A stretch of 64,000 nucleotides of DNA from the IMG/VR virus record IMGVR_UViG_2541047759_000001; one strand, 5' to 3'. The DNA is from a virus (Duplodnaviria > Heunggongvirae > Uroviricota > Caudoviricetes). Positions 4,132 through 10,800 of this stretch are shown piece after piece. The position numbers were made by a program, and so were the translations under genes. Numbering within the stretch: position 1 is the stretch's first letter; each line of letters opens with the position of its first letter. Below the pieces are notes generated by a model. The model was given only the letters and a program-made list of their open reading frames with translations. It ran no database searches and had not been told where the DNA came from.

Positions 4132-4884
4132 TGTGCACATCCTTTTGGCATCAGACGTAAACGGGCCAGCATTGAAACAATGCATACTTTATTTAATAAC
4201 TCCCGTTCGTGTTTTCTTTTGTTAATGGCATCTTCAGTAAATACAGGATTACTGATAGTGACACCAATTTCAAAACAACCTTCAGACGTATTAACGTTTG
4301 GTAATAACGTTTTCATTATCGCGCCCTCAACAATGAGTTTTGTGATGCGGTGCCTGGTGCCTCCAGGTGACGTTAACCAGTTAACAATTAACGCCGGATA
4401 CAGAGAATCCACCCATAACACTGTTTTTGGTTTTAACTGTTCCGCGTGCGCTTAGCCGCATTCACCGCATCACAAAATTCACTTTAAAAAGGGCGGCAGA
4501 GCAGTCACGGAGTAAAACTGATACCGCCAAACGTCACCAGAAAATTGATAACAGAGGGCGTTGCAGTGGGGTTGTCACTTAAGCGTATGGTCAACCTGAC
4601 AACCCGGTGTCCTCAACGGGGGAAGGAATAACCCCGCCATACTTACCGCCGCGCCATTTCGCGGATTGCCACAACCGGAAGCGCACGGTCGACGAAAATT
4701 TAACGACAGGCTATCTATGAACCAGCTACCTCGCCGTGCGCTTTCGCGTTATGGTCTGACTTTTCAGGGAAATATCCTTTCAGTAAACTGTCAGTGCCGG
4801 ATGCTCACCCGTGTCCGGCGCACGCACTCCACCTCACCCGTGGAGAACTCCTTAATTACCAACCTTAGCTTCGTTGGTTATCTA

Positions 4885-5710: not shown

Positions 5711-6349
5711 TTAAATATCTTGTTGAATTTTAAAGCATACGCCCAATATGCAAGATAGATCATCCAGCATAATTGAAGGGTAGCGAGGATTCGTGGGGAC
5801 TAAAAGAATATCCGGCCCTTCTATCTCCAGTTTACGAATGACAGGTGTTGTGGTCCCTTTGGGTAAGGCAAGGACAATATTTCCTGGTTGTACGGTTCGA
5901 TCGGGATCAACAAAAACTGTTGAACCATTTGGGATGGAAACTCCCCCACCAGATGTTGACATACTGTCACTCTCTAGAACAACTGCAAAGGTATTGACCG
6001 GGATTTCTCCGACAAGCTGCACACAAGAGGTTATTGAGGAATTTTTCATATAATCACTCCAGCTTGCTGCCTGCTGAAGTGATAGTAGCGGAACCGTTTT
6101 TATCGGCGGTAAAGATAGATCAAGCGAATCACCTGTATTTAACTCTCCTCCATTAAGAAGCCAATTTTCGTTTACTTTCAATATTTTTGCCAGTGAACTT
6201 ATGTAACGCGAGGACGGCGCTCCTCCACCGTTCATCCATTGACTTACGGAGCCTTTTGATGCGCCAGTGCCATTGACAAGGTCTTTGCCTTTCAGGTTTA
6301 GCGCATGCATACGTTGGGTTATGCGTTCAGATATAGTTTGCTTGCTCAT
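5711..6349 (-). CDS. cI: CI-type repressor (HTH N-domain plus S24/LexA-like peptidase C-domain)
   Basis: 212 aa; N-terminal HTH (GTGASKGSVSQWMNG), C-terminal DSMS..K autocleavage-like region; divergent from the cro-like gene. Confidence 0.85.
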   Translation of the reverse strand: MSKQTISERITQRMHALNLKGKDLVNGTGASKGSVSQWMNGGGAPSSRYISSLAKILKVNENWLLNGGELNTGDSLDLSLPPIKTVPLLSLQQAASWSDYMKNSSITSCVQLVGEIPVNTFAVVLESDSMSTSGGGVSIPNGSTVFVDPDRTVQPGNIVLALPKGTTTPVIRKLEIEGPDILLVPTNPRYPSIMLDDLSCILGVCFKIQQDI

Positions 6350-6440: not shown

Positions 6441-6683
6441 ATGAAAAAATCAGAAGTATTAGGCTATTTTGGCGGAGTTGTTAAAACAGCCGCAGCTCTA
6501 GGAACGTCAAAAACCACAGTCAGCATGTGGGGGGAAGAGGTTCCGTGGAAATGGGCGTTGCTAATTCAGGCAGTCACTGCCGGGGCGCTCAAATATGAGT
6601 TACACATACCGACGGTTGTCATTCCCGGTTCTGATCATAATCCGCCTTCTAACCAAGGGGGGATTCATGAAAATCAAGCATGA
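6441..6683 (+). CDS. cro: Cro/YdaS-like HTH regulator
   Basis: Small ORF with GGAG RBS, divergent from cI across a ~90-bp AT-rich operator region; MKKSEVLGYFGGVVKTAAALGTSKTTVSMW. Confidence 0.6.
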   Translation: MKKSEVLGYFGGVVKTAAALGTSKTTVSMWGEEVPWKWALLIQAVTAGALKYELHIPTVVIPGSDHNPPSNQGGIHENQA

Positions 6684-7092
6684 ACACATCCGCATGGCGA
6701 TGAATGCCTGGGCGCATCCGGACGGCGAAAAAGTACCGGCTGCGAAAATTACCAAAGCGTATTTCGAGCTGGGAATGACGTTCCCGGAACTGTATGACGA
6801 CAGCCATCCGGAAGCCCTGGCTCGCAATACCCAGAAAATTTTCCGCTGGGTAGAGAAAGACACCCCTGATGCAGTTGAAAAAATTCAGGCGTTGTTACCA
6901 GCGATCGAAAAGGCAATGCCACCTTTGCTGGTGGCCAGAATGCGCAGCCACAGTTCAGCTTATTTTCGGGAGCTGGTGGAGACGCGGGAGCGACTGGTGA
7001 GAGACGCTGATGATTTTGTCGCAGTGGCAATCGCCGGTTTCAATCAGATGAACCGTGGTGGCCCGGCAGGAAATGCTGTGGCAGTACATTGA
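6667..7092 (+). CDS. YdaT/CII-like regulatory protein
   Basis: MKIKHEHI... with ...KIQALLPAIEKAMPP..RSH.SAYFREL...RERLVRDADDF...GGPAGNAVAVH, recalled as the Rac YdaT family. Confidence 0.55.
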   Translation: MKIKHEHIRMAMNAWAHPDGEKVPAAKITKAYFELGMTFPELYDDSHPEALARNTQKIFRWVEKDTPDAVEKIQALLPAIEKAMPPLLVARMRSHSSAYFRELVETRERLVRDADDFVAVAIAGFNQMNRGGPAGNAVAVH

Positions 7093-8274: not shown

Positions 8275-8697
8275 GTGGCAAAAGTTTTTACACAAGAAGA
8301 GCGGGAAAAAATTAAAGGACAGGTTCTTGAACTCGTACGCCAGAGTGGGCGCGAGACGTTACGACAACTGGAAGCTAAAACTGGGGCAACAAGATATCTG
8401 ATGAGCGTTCTGGCCAGAGAGCTGGTTGCCAGTGGCGATGTATACAATTCTGGCTACGGGTTATTCCCGTCTGAACAGGCTCGTAAAGACTGGCAAAATG
8501 CCCGCAAAAAATTATCGAGGGCAAAGCTGAAGAAACCGGTTGTGGTTGATCCGGACCTTATCTGGTCGTTACCTGACGGAGAAATACGTCGCTACGACAG
8601 TCGCCTAAACATAATCTGTCGCGAGTGCCGGAAGAGTGAAGCTATGCAGCGTGTACTGGCTTTCTATCAGGGTAATTTTCAGGAGGCGGTACTGTGA
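8275..8697 (+). CDS. Hypothetical protein (replication-region)
   Basis: 140-aa ORF following the initiator; no signature recognised. Confidence 0.45.
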   Translation: MAKVFTQEEREKIKGQVLELVRQSGRETLRQLEAKTGATRYLMSVLARELVASGDVYNSGYGLFPSEQARKDWQNARKKLSRAKLKKPVVVDPDLIWSLPDGEIRRYDSRLNIICRECRKSEAMQRVLAFYQGNFQEAVL

Positions 8698-9810: not shown

Positions 9811-10039
9811 AACGCGAAAATCCACCAGCATCCGGAAACCTGATTACAGATTCCCAGATAAGGCAATGAGCTACCTGGCGCAGAACGGGCTGATAAGTAT
9901 GGGGAATGTTTTACGATGAATATTTAGACTAAAGAGTTTGTAACGCTATGTAAGTGATTTTTTCTGGTTTAGATATTTATATGTCCGGCCAAACTGAGGT
10001 GTGTTTAAATGTAATTGCACATTGATTGTAGGAGGAATA

Positions 10040-10219
10040 ATGAAAAACGCATTGCAGTTTTTGTTTGTTGCGTTCTGGTTGTTCGTATCATGTATGCCCA
10101 TCATCTTCACAGCAAGGTATATGGAAAAAGTTGATGTTTTGATATTAATATTTGGATATATAAATGCCCTTTTTTTAGGGGTGTTCATGGCGGTCATGTG
10201 CATTGAATACTGGCGGTAA
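10040..10219 (+). CDS. Small membrane protein (moron)
   Basis: ATG at 10040 with GGAGG RBS; hydrophobic 59 aa; AT-rich surroundings. Confidence 0.45.
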   Translation: MKNALQFLFVAFWLFVSCMPIIFTARYMEKVDVLILIFGYINALFLGVFMAVMCIEYWR

Positions 10220-10498
10220 ATACAGCGAACGCCATTGGTTTAGTTGGATATTTACTGTGCCGGACAAAAACGGTTTGCGGGGAAATCTTAGTTAAGTAGA
10301 ATGACTGCGGGTGCTTGAGGCTATCTGTCTCAGGCATGAACACCAAAAGGCAGATAGAGAAAAGCCCCAGTTAACATTACGCGTCCTGCAAGACGCTTAA
10401 CATTAATCTGAGGCCATATCTATGCGACACATAGAGATTAGCCTCTTACGGACCGAAAGGTCAAGGAGAAGCAGGCTATGAAGCAGCAAAAGGCGATG

Positions 10499-10654
10499 TT
10501 AATCGCCCTGATCGTCATCTGTTTAACCGTCATAGTGACGGCACTGGTAACGAGGAAAGACCTCTGCGAGGTACGAATCCGAACCGGCCAGACGGAGGTC
10601 GCTGTCTTCACAGCTTACGAACCTGAGGAGTAAGAGACCTGGCGGGGGAGAAAT
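10499..10654 (+). CDS. hok: Hok/Gef-family type I toxin (51 aa)
   Basis: MKQQKAMLIALIVICLTVIVTALVTRKDLCEVRIRTGQTEVAVFTAYEPEE: TM helix plus conserved C..R..G..EV.AF.AYE tail; terminator-like cccgcttcggcggg + T-run downstream. Not in the ORF track (<60 aa). Confidence 0.75.
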
Positions 10655-10800
10655 CCCTCGCCACCTCTGATGTGTCAGGCATCCTCAACGCACCCGCACT
10701 TAACCCGCTTCGGCGGGTTTTGTTTTTTCCTGGCATTCTGGTTTACAATTCGCACGTCAGCCTGAACACCTGACACCTGCTGCGCCAGCAGAGAAAACAG

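What the first reader, a model, noticed from the sequence alone, without database searches (positions are those of the whole stretch)
10220..10700. hok/sok-type type I toxin-antitoxin locus in the nin region
A 51-codon ORF with the Hok/Gef hallmark (single TM helix plus C..R..G..EV.AF.AYE tail) sits in the prophage nin region, flanked by structured sequence and a cccgcttcggcggg + T-run terminator, as expected for hok mRNA fold-back elements. It is missing from the ORF track because it is under 60 aa. It could stabilise the prophage or act in abortive infection.
Basis: partly seen in the sequence, partly recalled or inferred. Interest (0 to 1): 0.45.

Follow-up and report, generated by a model that had tools for sequence, protein, structure and literature searches.

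The report
Intact hokD-type hok/mok/sok prophage toxin locus

Summary
Confirmed and already known. Window 10478-10633 (+) encodes a 51-aa Hok/Gef toxin (Pfam PF01848, E 1e-23). Its coding DNA is identical to E. coli K-12 hokD/relF. The hok mRNA leader at 10309-10480 matches Rfam RF01794 at 106.7 bits (gathering score 59).

All canonical regulatory parts are present:
- a weak hok promoter
- a 5' tac element (10309-10320) that pairs with a 3' fbi element (10683-10695), supported by U-A/C-G covariation in 10 of 31 homologues
- a mok leader ORF with its own SD (10422-10481)
- a Sok-like antisense gene (about 10428 to 10356, minus strand) with a promoter at the position mutated experimentally in sokW
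- an intrinsic terminator (10702-10728)

The same 561 bp occurs at 100% identity in many E. coli genomes, where PGAP annotates hokD. It is 92% identical to hokW/mokW/sokW of phage 933W/Sp5, a proven type I TA system. K-12's hokD has lost this leader; this copy keeps it.

The only nuance is that mok here is 19 codons long and stops on a UGA overlapping the hok AUG. About 28% of complete E. coli genomes carry this allele. It fits published evidence that mok need only be translated up to the hok start. The biological role (lysis helper, abortive infection or prophage retention) is untested.

The parts
10275..10302 (+). Putative hok (mok-hok) promoter: -35 TTGCGG 10275-10280, 16-nt spacer, -10 TAGAAT 10297-10302. 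The transcript start is then about 10309/10310.
   Evidence: Read from the sequence. The block GGTTTGCGGG...GTTAAGTAGAAT is conserved with 933W hokW. The R1-type hok mRNA 5' end GGCGCTTGAGG aligns to 10310-10320. The strict consensus scan did not call it because the -35 matches only 3 of 6. The promoter is inferred and not mapped.
10309..10728 (+). Full-length hok mRNA (mok-hok bicistron), about 420 nt.
   Evidence: MFE -175.1 kcal/mol, z -8.5. On 31 homologues, 84% of structure cells are paired against about 42% when partners are slid, and 43 pairs change on both sides. The ends are inferred from Rfam, the R1 alignment and the terminator.
10309..10320 (+). tac element (5' end, GGGTGCTTGAGG).
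   Evidence: Pairs with 10683-10695 in the MFE. RNAalifold predicts the same pairing independently. The U-A pair is replaced by C-G in 10 of 31 sequences. When the 3' end is removed, the element refolds into a local 5' hairpin.
10309..10480 (+). hok mRNA leader, matched by Rfam RF01794 'sok'. The model is in the hok-sense orientation and ends at the hok AUG.
   Evidence: 106.7 bits against a gathering score of 59, E 7e-25, full model 1-157.
10364..10414 (+). Long imperfect hairpin (Sok-target region). Its 3' arm contains the mok Shine-Dalgarno GAGG at 10410-10413.
   Evidence: MFE. Helix 4 is 90% paired, with 6 pairs changed on both sides (for example A-U to G-C in 10 sequences). The hairpin carries an 18-20-nt extension that is absent from hokC-type loci.
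10422..10481 (+). mok leader ORF: ATG 10422, 19 codons (MRHIEISLLRTERSRRSRL), stop UGA 10479-10481 overlapping the hok AUG (AUGA).
   Evidence: The SD GAGG lies 8 nt upstream. The start position (-56) is homologous to the mok starts of 933W mokW and K-12 mokC (-57, in frame) and of R1 (-58; coordinates).
10356..10428 (-). Sok-like antisense RNA, about 70-75 nt. The 5' end is near 10428 and the 3' end lies between about 10354 and 10360.
   Evidence: The 933W sokW annotation maps to 10360-10428 through alignment A1. The K-12 sokC annotation maps to about 10354-10428 through A2. The RNA folds as a 13-nt single-stranded 5' tail (complementary to the mok AUG region), a long hairpin and a U-rich tail: -29.8 kcal/mol, z -4.4. 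Expression is not tested.
10435..10464 (-). Sok promoter: -35 TTGACC (10464 to 10459), 18-nt spacer, -10 TAATCT (10440 to 10435).
   Evidence: One search gives the minus-strand sequence. The -10 is homologous to the sokW -10 (TAACCT), which Takada et al. destroyed to make a promoter-less construct (primer YO-421). The strict scan did not call it because the -10 matches only 3 of 6.
10464..10468 (+). hok Shine-Dalgarno AGGAG, 9 nt before the hok AUG. It lies inside mok and overlaps the Sok -35 on the other strand.
   Evidence: AAGGAG is nearly invariant in the 31-sequence alignment.
10478..10633 (+). hok (hokD-type) toxin gene, 51 aa.
   Evidence: The coding DNA is identical to K-12 hokD. PGAP annotates the identical DNA as hokD.
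10641..10662 (+). Conserved G+C-rich 3'-UTR hairpin (GGCGGGGGAGAAATCCCTCGCC).
   Evidence: MFE. Helices 16-17 are 80-98% paired. RNAalifold predicts the hairpin too.
10683..10695 (+). fbi (fold-back inhibition) element, CCTCAACGCACCC.
   Evidence: Pairs with tac. Twelve pairs, 88% of cells paired against 33-55% when slid.
10702..10728 (+). Intrinsic terminator: AACCCGCTTCGGCGGGTT followed by TTGTTTTTT.
   Evidence: 7-bp stem, 5 G-C pairs, 4-nt loop, T-run.

Best explanation
This is an intact hokD-type member of the hok/mok/sok type I toxin-antitoxin family. It is carried in the early-right (nin-equivalent) region of a Qin/Rac-like lambdoid prophage of E. coli.

Proposed mechanism, by homology to R1 hok/sok and Sp5 hokW/sokW:
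1. A weak promoter (about 10275-10302) makes a ~420-nt mRNA.
2. The mRNA's 5' tac end pairs with the 3' fbi element, locking it in a closed form in which the mok ribosome-binding site sits inside a hairpin. This form is inert for translation and for Sok binding.
3. Slow 3' trimming removes fbi, and the 5' end refolds locally. The mok initiation region then becomes available both to ribosomes and to Sok.
4. Sok is an unstable ~70-nt antisense RNA made from a promoter inside mok. Its single-stranded 5' tail covers the mok AUG. While Sok is present it blocks mok translation, and the duplex is cleaved.
5. When Sok falls, ribosomes translate the 19-codon mok, open the hok SD and terminate on the UGA that overlaps the hok AUG. 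Hok is then translated by coupling.
6. Hok is a 51-aa inner-membrane peptide that collapses membrane potential.

Shown here: all the sequence elements, their homology to annotated or experimentally tested counterparts, the predicted closed fold and its refolding, and covariation.

Inferred: the transcripts and their ends, processing, Sok instability, toxicity in this host, and the biological role. I consider the most likely role to be the one measured for the prophage homologue hokW: a contribution to membrane damage and phage release when the prophage is induced. This is held at low confidence. The confidence given below is for the identity and mechanism, not for the role.
For: - Toxin: Pfam HOK_GEF 82.9 bits, and PHROG 251 'MokW-like host killing'.
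- Leader: Rfam RF01794 at 106.7 bits against a gathering score of 59, over the full model.
- Identity: 100% identical 561-bp loci in EC958, H10407, JJ1886 and others, annotated hokD. The locus is 92% identical to 933W hokW/mokW/sokW (mean column identity of the pairwise alignment; megablast gives 91.4%). That locus carries annotated mok, hok and Sok features and was shown to be a functional type I TA system.
- Closed fold: 5'-3' closure in the MFE, z -8.5. RNAalifold predicts it independently. U-A to C-G covariation occurs in 10 of 31 homologues, and whole-structure covariation exceeds all shuffles and slid controls. Removing the 3' end changes the predicted 5' fold.
- Sok: antisense hairpin with a free 5' tail. 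The promoter hexamers lie at the site mutated in sokW.
- mok: the start is positionally conserved at -56/-57/-58 in 40 of 44 related loci plus the window. R1 genetics show that mok must be translated only up to the hok start.
- Allele frequency: the 106 nt spanning mok are at least 99% identical in 1539 E. coli records.
Against: - The strict sigma-70 scan calls neither promoter, so both are assigned by homology.
- mok is frame-shifted relative to the closest characterised homologues (hokW, hokC) and could in principle reflect decay.
- The chromosomal hokA, hokB and hokC loci tested by Pedersen and Gerdes did not give post-segregational killing or rifampicin activation (as cited).
- NCBIfam Hok models score below their cut-offs (48.5 against 73). 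Pfam and PHROG are unambiguous.
- No expression, processing or toxicity data exist for this exact allele.
- hokW sits at a different place in its phage (near attR), so its role may not transfer to this locus.
Confidence: 0.9

Rival explanations
1. The locus is a decayed, non-functional hok remnant, like most K-12 chromosomal hok loci. On this reading the mok frameshift (2-bp deletion plus 1-bp insertion relative to hokW) uncouples hok translation, so Hok is never made from the native transcript.
For: mok is 19 codons long, against 68-70 in 30 of 44 related loci. The indels relative to 933W and hokC are visible. Chromosomal hok loci are reported inactive in PSK tests, and K-12 hokD is described as inactivated by rearrangement.
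Against: - The mok start codon, its SD and its position are intact, and the frame stays open to the hok AUG.
- In R1, stop codons in mok downstream of the hok start have no effect. Suppressor stop codons map almost only upstream of it.
- The same -56 class arose independently in the hokC loci of E. ruysiae and E. whittamii.
- The allele is at least 99% conserved in 1539 records.
- Hok, tac, fbi, the Sok promoter and the terminator are all intact. K-12 hokD, in contrast, lacks the whole leader.
Confidence: 0.12
2. The module's role is abortive infection or exclusion of superinfecting lytic phage. Host transcription shut-off by the invader depletes unstable Sok, and Hok kills the cell before the burst.
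For: R1 hok/sok on a high-copy plasmid reduced T4 plating by 42% and plaque size by about 85% (cited). Hok genes are enriched four-fold in prophages.
Against: The effect was modest and seen only at high copy. hok is not enriched near defence systems. The prophage homologue hokW had a pro-phage rather than an anti-phage effect. Nothing in the window tests this.
Confidence: 0.2
3. The module's role is prophage retention (post-segregational killing). Cells that excise or lose the prophage lose Sok faster than the stable hok mRNA and die.
For: All the RNA elements needed for delayed activation (tac/fbi, 3' tail) are present.
Against: The chromosomal hokA, hokB and hokC loci did not mediate PSK (cited). 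The prophage looks cryptic or Qin-like and is rarely lost.
Confidence: 0.15
4. The ORF and its surrounding structure are a chance small ORF in an intergenic region.
For: None beyond the ORF's small size.
Against: Pfam E 1e-23, Rfam E 7e-25, fold z -8.5, and covariation.
Confidence: 0

Closest known systems
hokD (relF) of E. coli K-12 cryptic prophage Qin
   Same: The hok coding DNA is identical and the 3' UTR is nearly identical, including fbi. The synteny is the same: hokD, rem, DUF968 (ydfU), antiterminator Q, in a dicB/DicF-bearing prophage. PGAP names the window's sequence hokD.
   Different: In K-12 the sequence upstream of the hok SD is the 3' end of relBE, so there is no tac, no mok, no Sok and no hok promoter. 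The literature describes K-12 hokD as inactivated by rearrangement. The window keeps the complete leader, so it is the intact form of the locus.
hokW/mokW/sokW of Stx2 phages 933W and Sp5 (Takada et al. 2021, PMC8621323)
   Same: 92% identical over about 440 bp, from the promoter to fbi (mean column identity; 91.4% by megablast). Hok is 47/51 identical by my count from that alignment. The positions of mok, Sok and the Sok -10 are homologous. hokW/sokW is experimentally a type I TA system, and its antitoxin activity partly depends on RNase III and Hfq.
   Different: mokW is a 70-codon, in-frame N-terminal extension of Hok (start at -57). Here mok starts at -56, has 19 codons and stops on the hok AUG. 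hokW lies near attR of the phage, not between the replication genes and Q. The 3' terminator region differs.
hokC (gef)/mokC/sokC of the E. coli chromosome
   Same: Same architecture, with the leader alignable throughout. The annotated sokC 5' end maps to window 10428. The hokC loci of E. ruysiae and E. whittamii share the 19-codon mok class.
   Different: The Hok proteins are about 80-82% identical. hokC lacks the 18-nt extension of the Sok-target hairpin. K-12 hokC is disrupted by IS186 nearby.
hok/sok (parB) of plasmid R1, the family paradigm
   Same: The 5' end GG(C/T)GCTTGAGGCT, the GCCTCTTAC block, the hok SD and the overall order tac, Sok target, mok, hok, fbi all align. Sok is antisense to the mok initiation region. 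mok translation is needed up to the hok start.
   Different: Hok is only 42% identical. R1 mok starts at -58, is out of frame and has 70 codons. R1 is plasmid-borne with proven PSK. The window's locus is prophage-borne with an untested role.

Membership tests
hok/sok (Hok/Gef) type I toxin-antitoxin family | Small (~50 aa) Hok/Gef membrane toxin | tested here: met
   PF01848 at 82.9 bits against a cut-off of 22, full model 1-42. PHROG 251 E 2.8e-33. Coding DNA identical to K-12 hokD.
hok/sok (Hok/Gef) type I toxin-antitoxin family | Conserved structured hok mRNA leader | tested here: met
   Rfam RF01794 at 106.7 bits against a gathering score of 59, model 1-157 of 157.
hok/sok (Hok/Gef) type I toxin-antitoxin family | mok leader ORF with its own SD, starting about 57 nt upstream of hok and open at least to the hok initiation region | tested here: met
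   ATG 10422 (-56), SD GAGG 8 nt upstream, 19 codons, stop overlapping the hok AUG. The frame and length differ from hokW/hokC (-57) and R1 (-58).
hok/sok (Hok/Gef) type I toxin-antitoxin family | Cis-encoded antisense Sok gene overlapping the mok initiation region, with its own promoter | tested here: met
   At the sequence level only. Hexamers TTGACC, 18 nt, TAATCT lie at the position of the experimentally mutated sokW -10. The annotated sokW and sokC map to about 10354/10360-10428. The RNA folds as a hairpin with a free 5' tail, z -4.4. The strict promoter scan was negative.
hok/sok (Hok/Gef) type I toxin-antitoxin family | Long-range tac/fbi 5'-3' pairing that closes the full-length mRNA | tested here: met
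   MFE and RNAalifold. Twelve pairs, 88% of cells paired against 33-55% when slid. U-A to C-G in 10 of 31 sequences.
hok/sok (Hok/Gef) type I toxin-antitoxin family | 3' processing to a truncated, translatable and Sok-binding mRNA | not testable with these tools
   In silico only: deleting 10681-10727 makes the 5' end refold into a local hairpin. That hairpin shows covariation (columns 40-44 with 50-54).
hok/sok (Hok/Gef) type I toxin-antitoxin family | Toxicity of Hok and neutralisation by Sok | not testable with these tools
   Shown for the 47/51-identical HokW and for sokW. Not tested for this allele.
Post-segregational killing / addiction module (functional class) | Stabilises its replicon by killing segregants | not testable with these tools
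   Reported negative for the chromosomal hokA, hokB and hokC loci (cited). Unknown for this locus.

The most novel reading that the evidence does not exclude
The most novel reading not excluded is that the 19-codon mok is a distinct, selected regulatory design. In this class (start at -56), mok necessarily terminates on the UGA inside AUGA at the hok start. Hok synthesis would then depend on termination-reinitiation rather than on ribosomes reading through hok, and no Mok or extended-Hok protein would be made. This could set a different Hok output or threshold in about 28% of E. coli genomes. In the in-frame (-57) class, by contrast, mok translation itself yields an N-terminally extended Hok. 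Across the family, all three reading-frame relations occur with the start position fixed. That is a natural confirmation that only the act of translating up to hok matters.
Probability: 0.2. Interest if true: 0.3.

Novelty: already known. Interest (0 to 1): 0.1.

Why it matters
The practical value is for annotation. Standard pipelines label only the 51-aa CDS as hokD. They omit mok, Sok and the mRNA elements, and small-ORF filters miss even the toxin.

This copy is the intact form of the K-12 'relF/hokD' locus. It would therefore suit tests of what a prophage-borne hok does at single copy: lysis timing on induction, phage exclusion or prophage retention. The published survey says that question is still open. 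Nothing here changes what is understood about the family.

Tried and rejected
- **Strict sigma-70 scan of 10150-10800.** It found no promoter on either strand. I therefore assigned both promoters by homology rather than by consensus score, and flag them as inferred.
- **Weak Rfam matches.** isrK (27 bits against a gathering score of 50), ceN48, ceN65 and rsmX are below threshold and cover the hok 3' UTR or leader. I rejected them as family assignments. A DNA search of the hok 3' region and rem against phages found no Gifsy-type relative that could support the isrK lead.
- **NCBIfam Hok models.** They score below their cut-offs and are not used as evidence.
- **Mapping R1's ucb and dcb boxes.** I did not assign coordinates. 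The MFE of the window and the RNAalifold consensus disagree on the partner of the invariant CUCUUAC block (hok SD region against GUAAGAG at the hok stop). Both partners are invariant, so covariation cannot decide.
- **Chance ORF.** Rejected.
- **Neighbouring small ORFs.** Pfam, PHROG and NCBIfam gave nothing for the 59-aa ORF at 10040-10219.

Full report
**Observation.** Window 10478-10633 (+) is a 51-codon ORF, MKQQKAMLIALIVICLTVIVTALVTRKDLCEVRIRTGQTEVAVFTAYEPEE. It matches Pfam HOK_GEF over the whole model at 82.9 bits against a cut-off of 22, E 1.2e-23. It also matches PHROG 251 'MokW-like host killing', E 2.8e-33. The upstream 172 nt (10309-10480) match Rfam RF01794 end to end at 106.7 bits against a gathering score of 59. 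That model is named 'sok', but it is written in the hok-sense orientation and ends at the hok AUG, so it really scores the hok mRNA leader.

**Context.** Pfam places an S24/HTH repressor at 5711-6349 (-), YdaT at 6595-7092 and DUF977 at 8275-8697 upstream. Downstream lie a rem homologue (10801-11073), DUF968 (11075-12133), RusA (12134-12496) and antiterminator Q (12511-13332), then two tRNAs. DicF lies at 4491-4542. All genes from the early region to Q are on the + strand, as is hok. K-12 Qin has the same order: hokD, rem, ydfU (DUF968), ydfT (Q).

**Identity with known sequences.** The 561 bp at 10200-10760 occur at 100% identity in many complete E. coli genomes, including EC958, JJ1886 and ETEC H10407. 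PGAP annotates the CDS there as 'type I toxin-antitoxin system toxin HokD'. Of 5426 genomes, 4956 have some match. The locus is 92% identical to the hokW/mokW/sokW locus of phage 933W (mean column identity of the pairwise alignment; megablast gives 91.4%). That record annotates mok, hok and the Sok antisense RNA. Takada et al. showed that the Sp5 copy is a functional type I TA system. HokW is toxic, and sokW expressed from its own promoter neutralises it, partly through RNase III and Hfq. The K-12 hokD coding DNA is identical to the window's. Upstream of the hok SD, however, K-12 carries the end of relBE instead of a leader. The literature treats K-12 hokD as inactivated by rearrangement. The window therefore holds the intact form of hokD.

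**Anatomy.**
- *hok promoter (inferred).* TTGCGG (10275-10280), 16 nt, TAGAAT (10297-10302), giving a start at about 10309/10310. The 5' end of the R1-type hok mRNA aligns there.
- *mok.* ATG at 10422, preceded by GAGG (10410-13) at 8 nt. It runs for 19 codons to a UGA at 10479-10481 that overlaps the hok AUG (AUGA).
- *hok SD.* AGGAG at 10464-10468.
- *Sok.* Projecting the annotated sokW and sokC RNAs through the alignments places Sok at about 10428 to 10354/10360 on the minus strand.
- *Sok promoter.* TTGACC (10464-10459), 18 nt, TAATCT (10440-10435). The -10 is the homologue of the TAACCT element that Takada et al. destroyed to make their promoter-less construct (primer YO-421).
- *Sok fold.* The predicted RNA has a 13-nt single-stranded 5' tail complementary to the mok AUG region, then a long hairpin and a U-rich tail (-29.8 kcal/mol, z -4.4).

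The strict consensus scan called neither promoter, so both rest on homology.

**RNA structure.** The 419-nt transcript folds at -175.1 kcal/mol (z -8.5). The 5' GGGUGCUUGAGG (10309-10320) pairs with CCUCAA-C-GCACCC (10683-10695), which is the tac/fbi closure. The mok SD lies inside a long hairpin at 10364-10414. I aligned 31 loci from Escherichia, Kluyvera, Pseudocitrobacter, Citrobacter, Pantoea and Photorhabdus.
- The tac/fbi helix is 88% paired, against 33-55% when partners are slid. One U-A pair is replaced by C-G in 10 sequences.
- The whole window-derived structure is 84% paired against about 42% slid. Forty-three pairs change on both sides, and none of 500 shuffles reaches that.
- RNAalifold, which does not use the window's fold, predicts the same 5'-3' closure. 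It also predicts a covarying local 5' hairpin.
- Removing the last 47 nt makes the 5' end refold into that local hairpin. This fits the published switch from an inert full-length mRNA to an active truncated one.

I did not assign the ucb and dcb boxes. The two predictions disagree on the partner of the invariant CUCUUAC block, and both candidate partners are invariant.

**The one nuance: mok.** Relative to 933W, the window has a 2-bp deletion just after the mok ATG and a 1-bp insertion in AGG-T-CAAGG. mok is therefore neither the in-frame 70-codon mokW/mokC type nor the out-of-frame 70-codon R1 type. Among 44 related loci from GTDB species representatives, counts by the position of the mok ATG relative to the hok ATG were:

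| mok start | Reading frame and length | Loci |
|---|---|---|
| -57 | in frame, 61-70 codons | 30 |
| -58 | out of frame, 55-69 codons | 8 |
| -56 | 19 codons, stop on the hok AUG | 2 (hokC of E. ruysiae and E. whittamii) |
| none | no mok | 4 |

The window belongs to the -56 class. R1 is -58 by the published coordinates: mok start T117/G118 and hok start G176. Because hok genes begin ATGA, a -56 mok must stop there. In R1, stop codons in mok beyond the hok start are harmless, and suppressor stop codons map almost only upstream of it. A 19-codon mok should therefore still couple. The 106 nt spanning mok are at least 99% identical in 1539 E. coli records, which does not look like recent decay. 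I therefore give the 'dead remnant' rival about 0.12.

**Function.** The mechanism is the family's. The mRNA is stable but closed. It is slowly activated at the 3' end. Unstable Sok blocks mok and thereby hok, and Hok kills through the inner membrane when Sok is lost. These steps are inferred by homology and are not shown for this allele.

The biological role is open. Chromosomal hok loci failed PSK tests. High-copy R1 hok/sok modestly inhibits T4. hokW assists lysis and doubles Sp5 release after mitomycin C, with RecA-dependent loss of sokW. A recent survey finds hok enriched four-fold in prophages and calls the function there unstudied. I rank the hokW-like induction role slightly ahead of Abi and PSK, all at low confidence.

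**Verdict.** The locus is a textbook family member, identical to sequences already annotated as hokD and close to a characterised prophage homologue. Novelty: already known. Interest: low (0.1). The 19-codon mok class is a minor variant worth a sentence, not a discovery.

Noticed in passing
window 10040-10219 (+), within the AT-rich island 9900-10220: An unannotated 59-aa hydrophobic ORF (MKNALQFLFVAFWLFVSCMPIIFTARYMEKVDVLILIFGYINALFLGVFMAVMCIEYWR) with a strong AGGAGG SD at 10030-10035. It lies in a 35% GC segment directly upstream of the hok module. It has no Pfam, PHROG or NCBIfam hit. The segment occurs in 1570 of 5426 E. coli genomes, and PGAP annotates nothing over the ORF.
   Followed up: partly
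window 10616-10619 (+): The Tyr47 codon of hok (TAC followed by G) forms the TadA editing motif UACG, and TTACGAA is invariant across 31 homologues. K-12 hokD mRNA, which has identical coding DNA, is reported to be A-to-I edited at 6%, recoding Tyr to Cys.
   Followed up: partly
window 10642-10723 (+): A sub-threshold match to Rfam isrK, the Salmonella Gifsy-1 prophage sRNA (27.2 bits against a gathering score of 50, E 0.0017). It covers the hok 3'-UTR hairpin and the terminator. This could be chance, or it could hint that isrK-like elements derive from hok 3' ends. A DNA search of phages found no Gifsy-type relative.
   Followed up: partly
L029 106-853 (Kluyvera sp. CHPC 1.2972); also L008 and window-related K-12 L003 5120-5873: The relB, relE, hok arrangement of K-12 is also present in a Kluyvera genome. 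There the junction sequence upstream of the hok SD is the same, although Hok is only 70% identical. The relE there appears truncated (53-aa ORF). The relBE-hokD fusion is therefore older and wider than a K-12 accident.
   Followed up: partly
window 10675-10854 (-): PGAP annotates a 59-aa 'hypothetical protein' on the minus strand in identical genomes (EC958_RS30310). It overlaps the hok terminator and the start of rem, and it is probably a spurious call.
   Followed up: no
window 4491-4542 (-) and 14425-14614 (+): DicF sRNA (76.7 bits) and STnc100 sRNA (132.4 bits) both score above their gathering thresholds. Together with dicB-type context in the identical EC958 region, this confirms a Qin/Rac-like prophage.
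   Followed up: no
window 13476-13551 (+): ARAGORN calls this a tRNA-Met with a CAT anticodon. PGAP annotates the corresponding gene in EC958 as tRNA-Ile. That is the usual ambiguity for lysidine-modified tRNA-Ile2. It sits just after Q, as in Stx-type phages.
   Followed up: no
Rfam RF01794 match, window 10309-10480 (+): The Rfam family named 'sok antitoxin' matches in the hok-sense orientation and ends at the hok AUG. A hit to it therefore marks the hok leader strand, not the strand that encodes Sok. This is easy to misread in automated annotation.
   Followed up: yes
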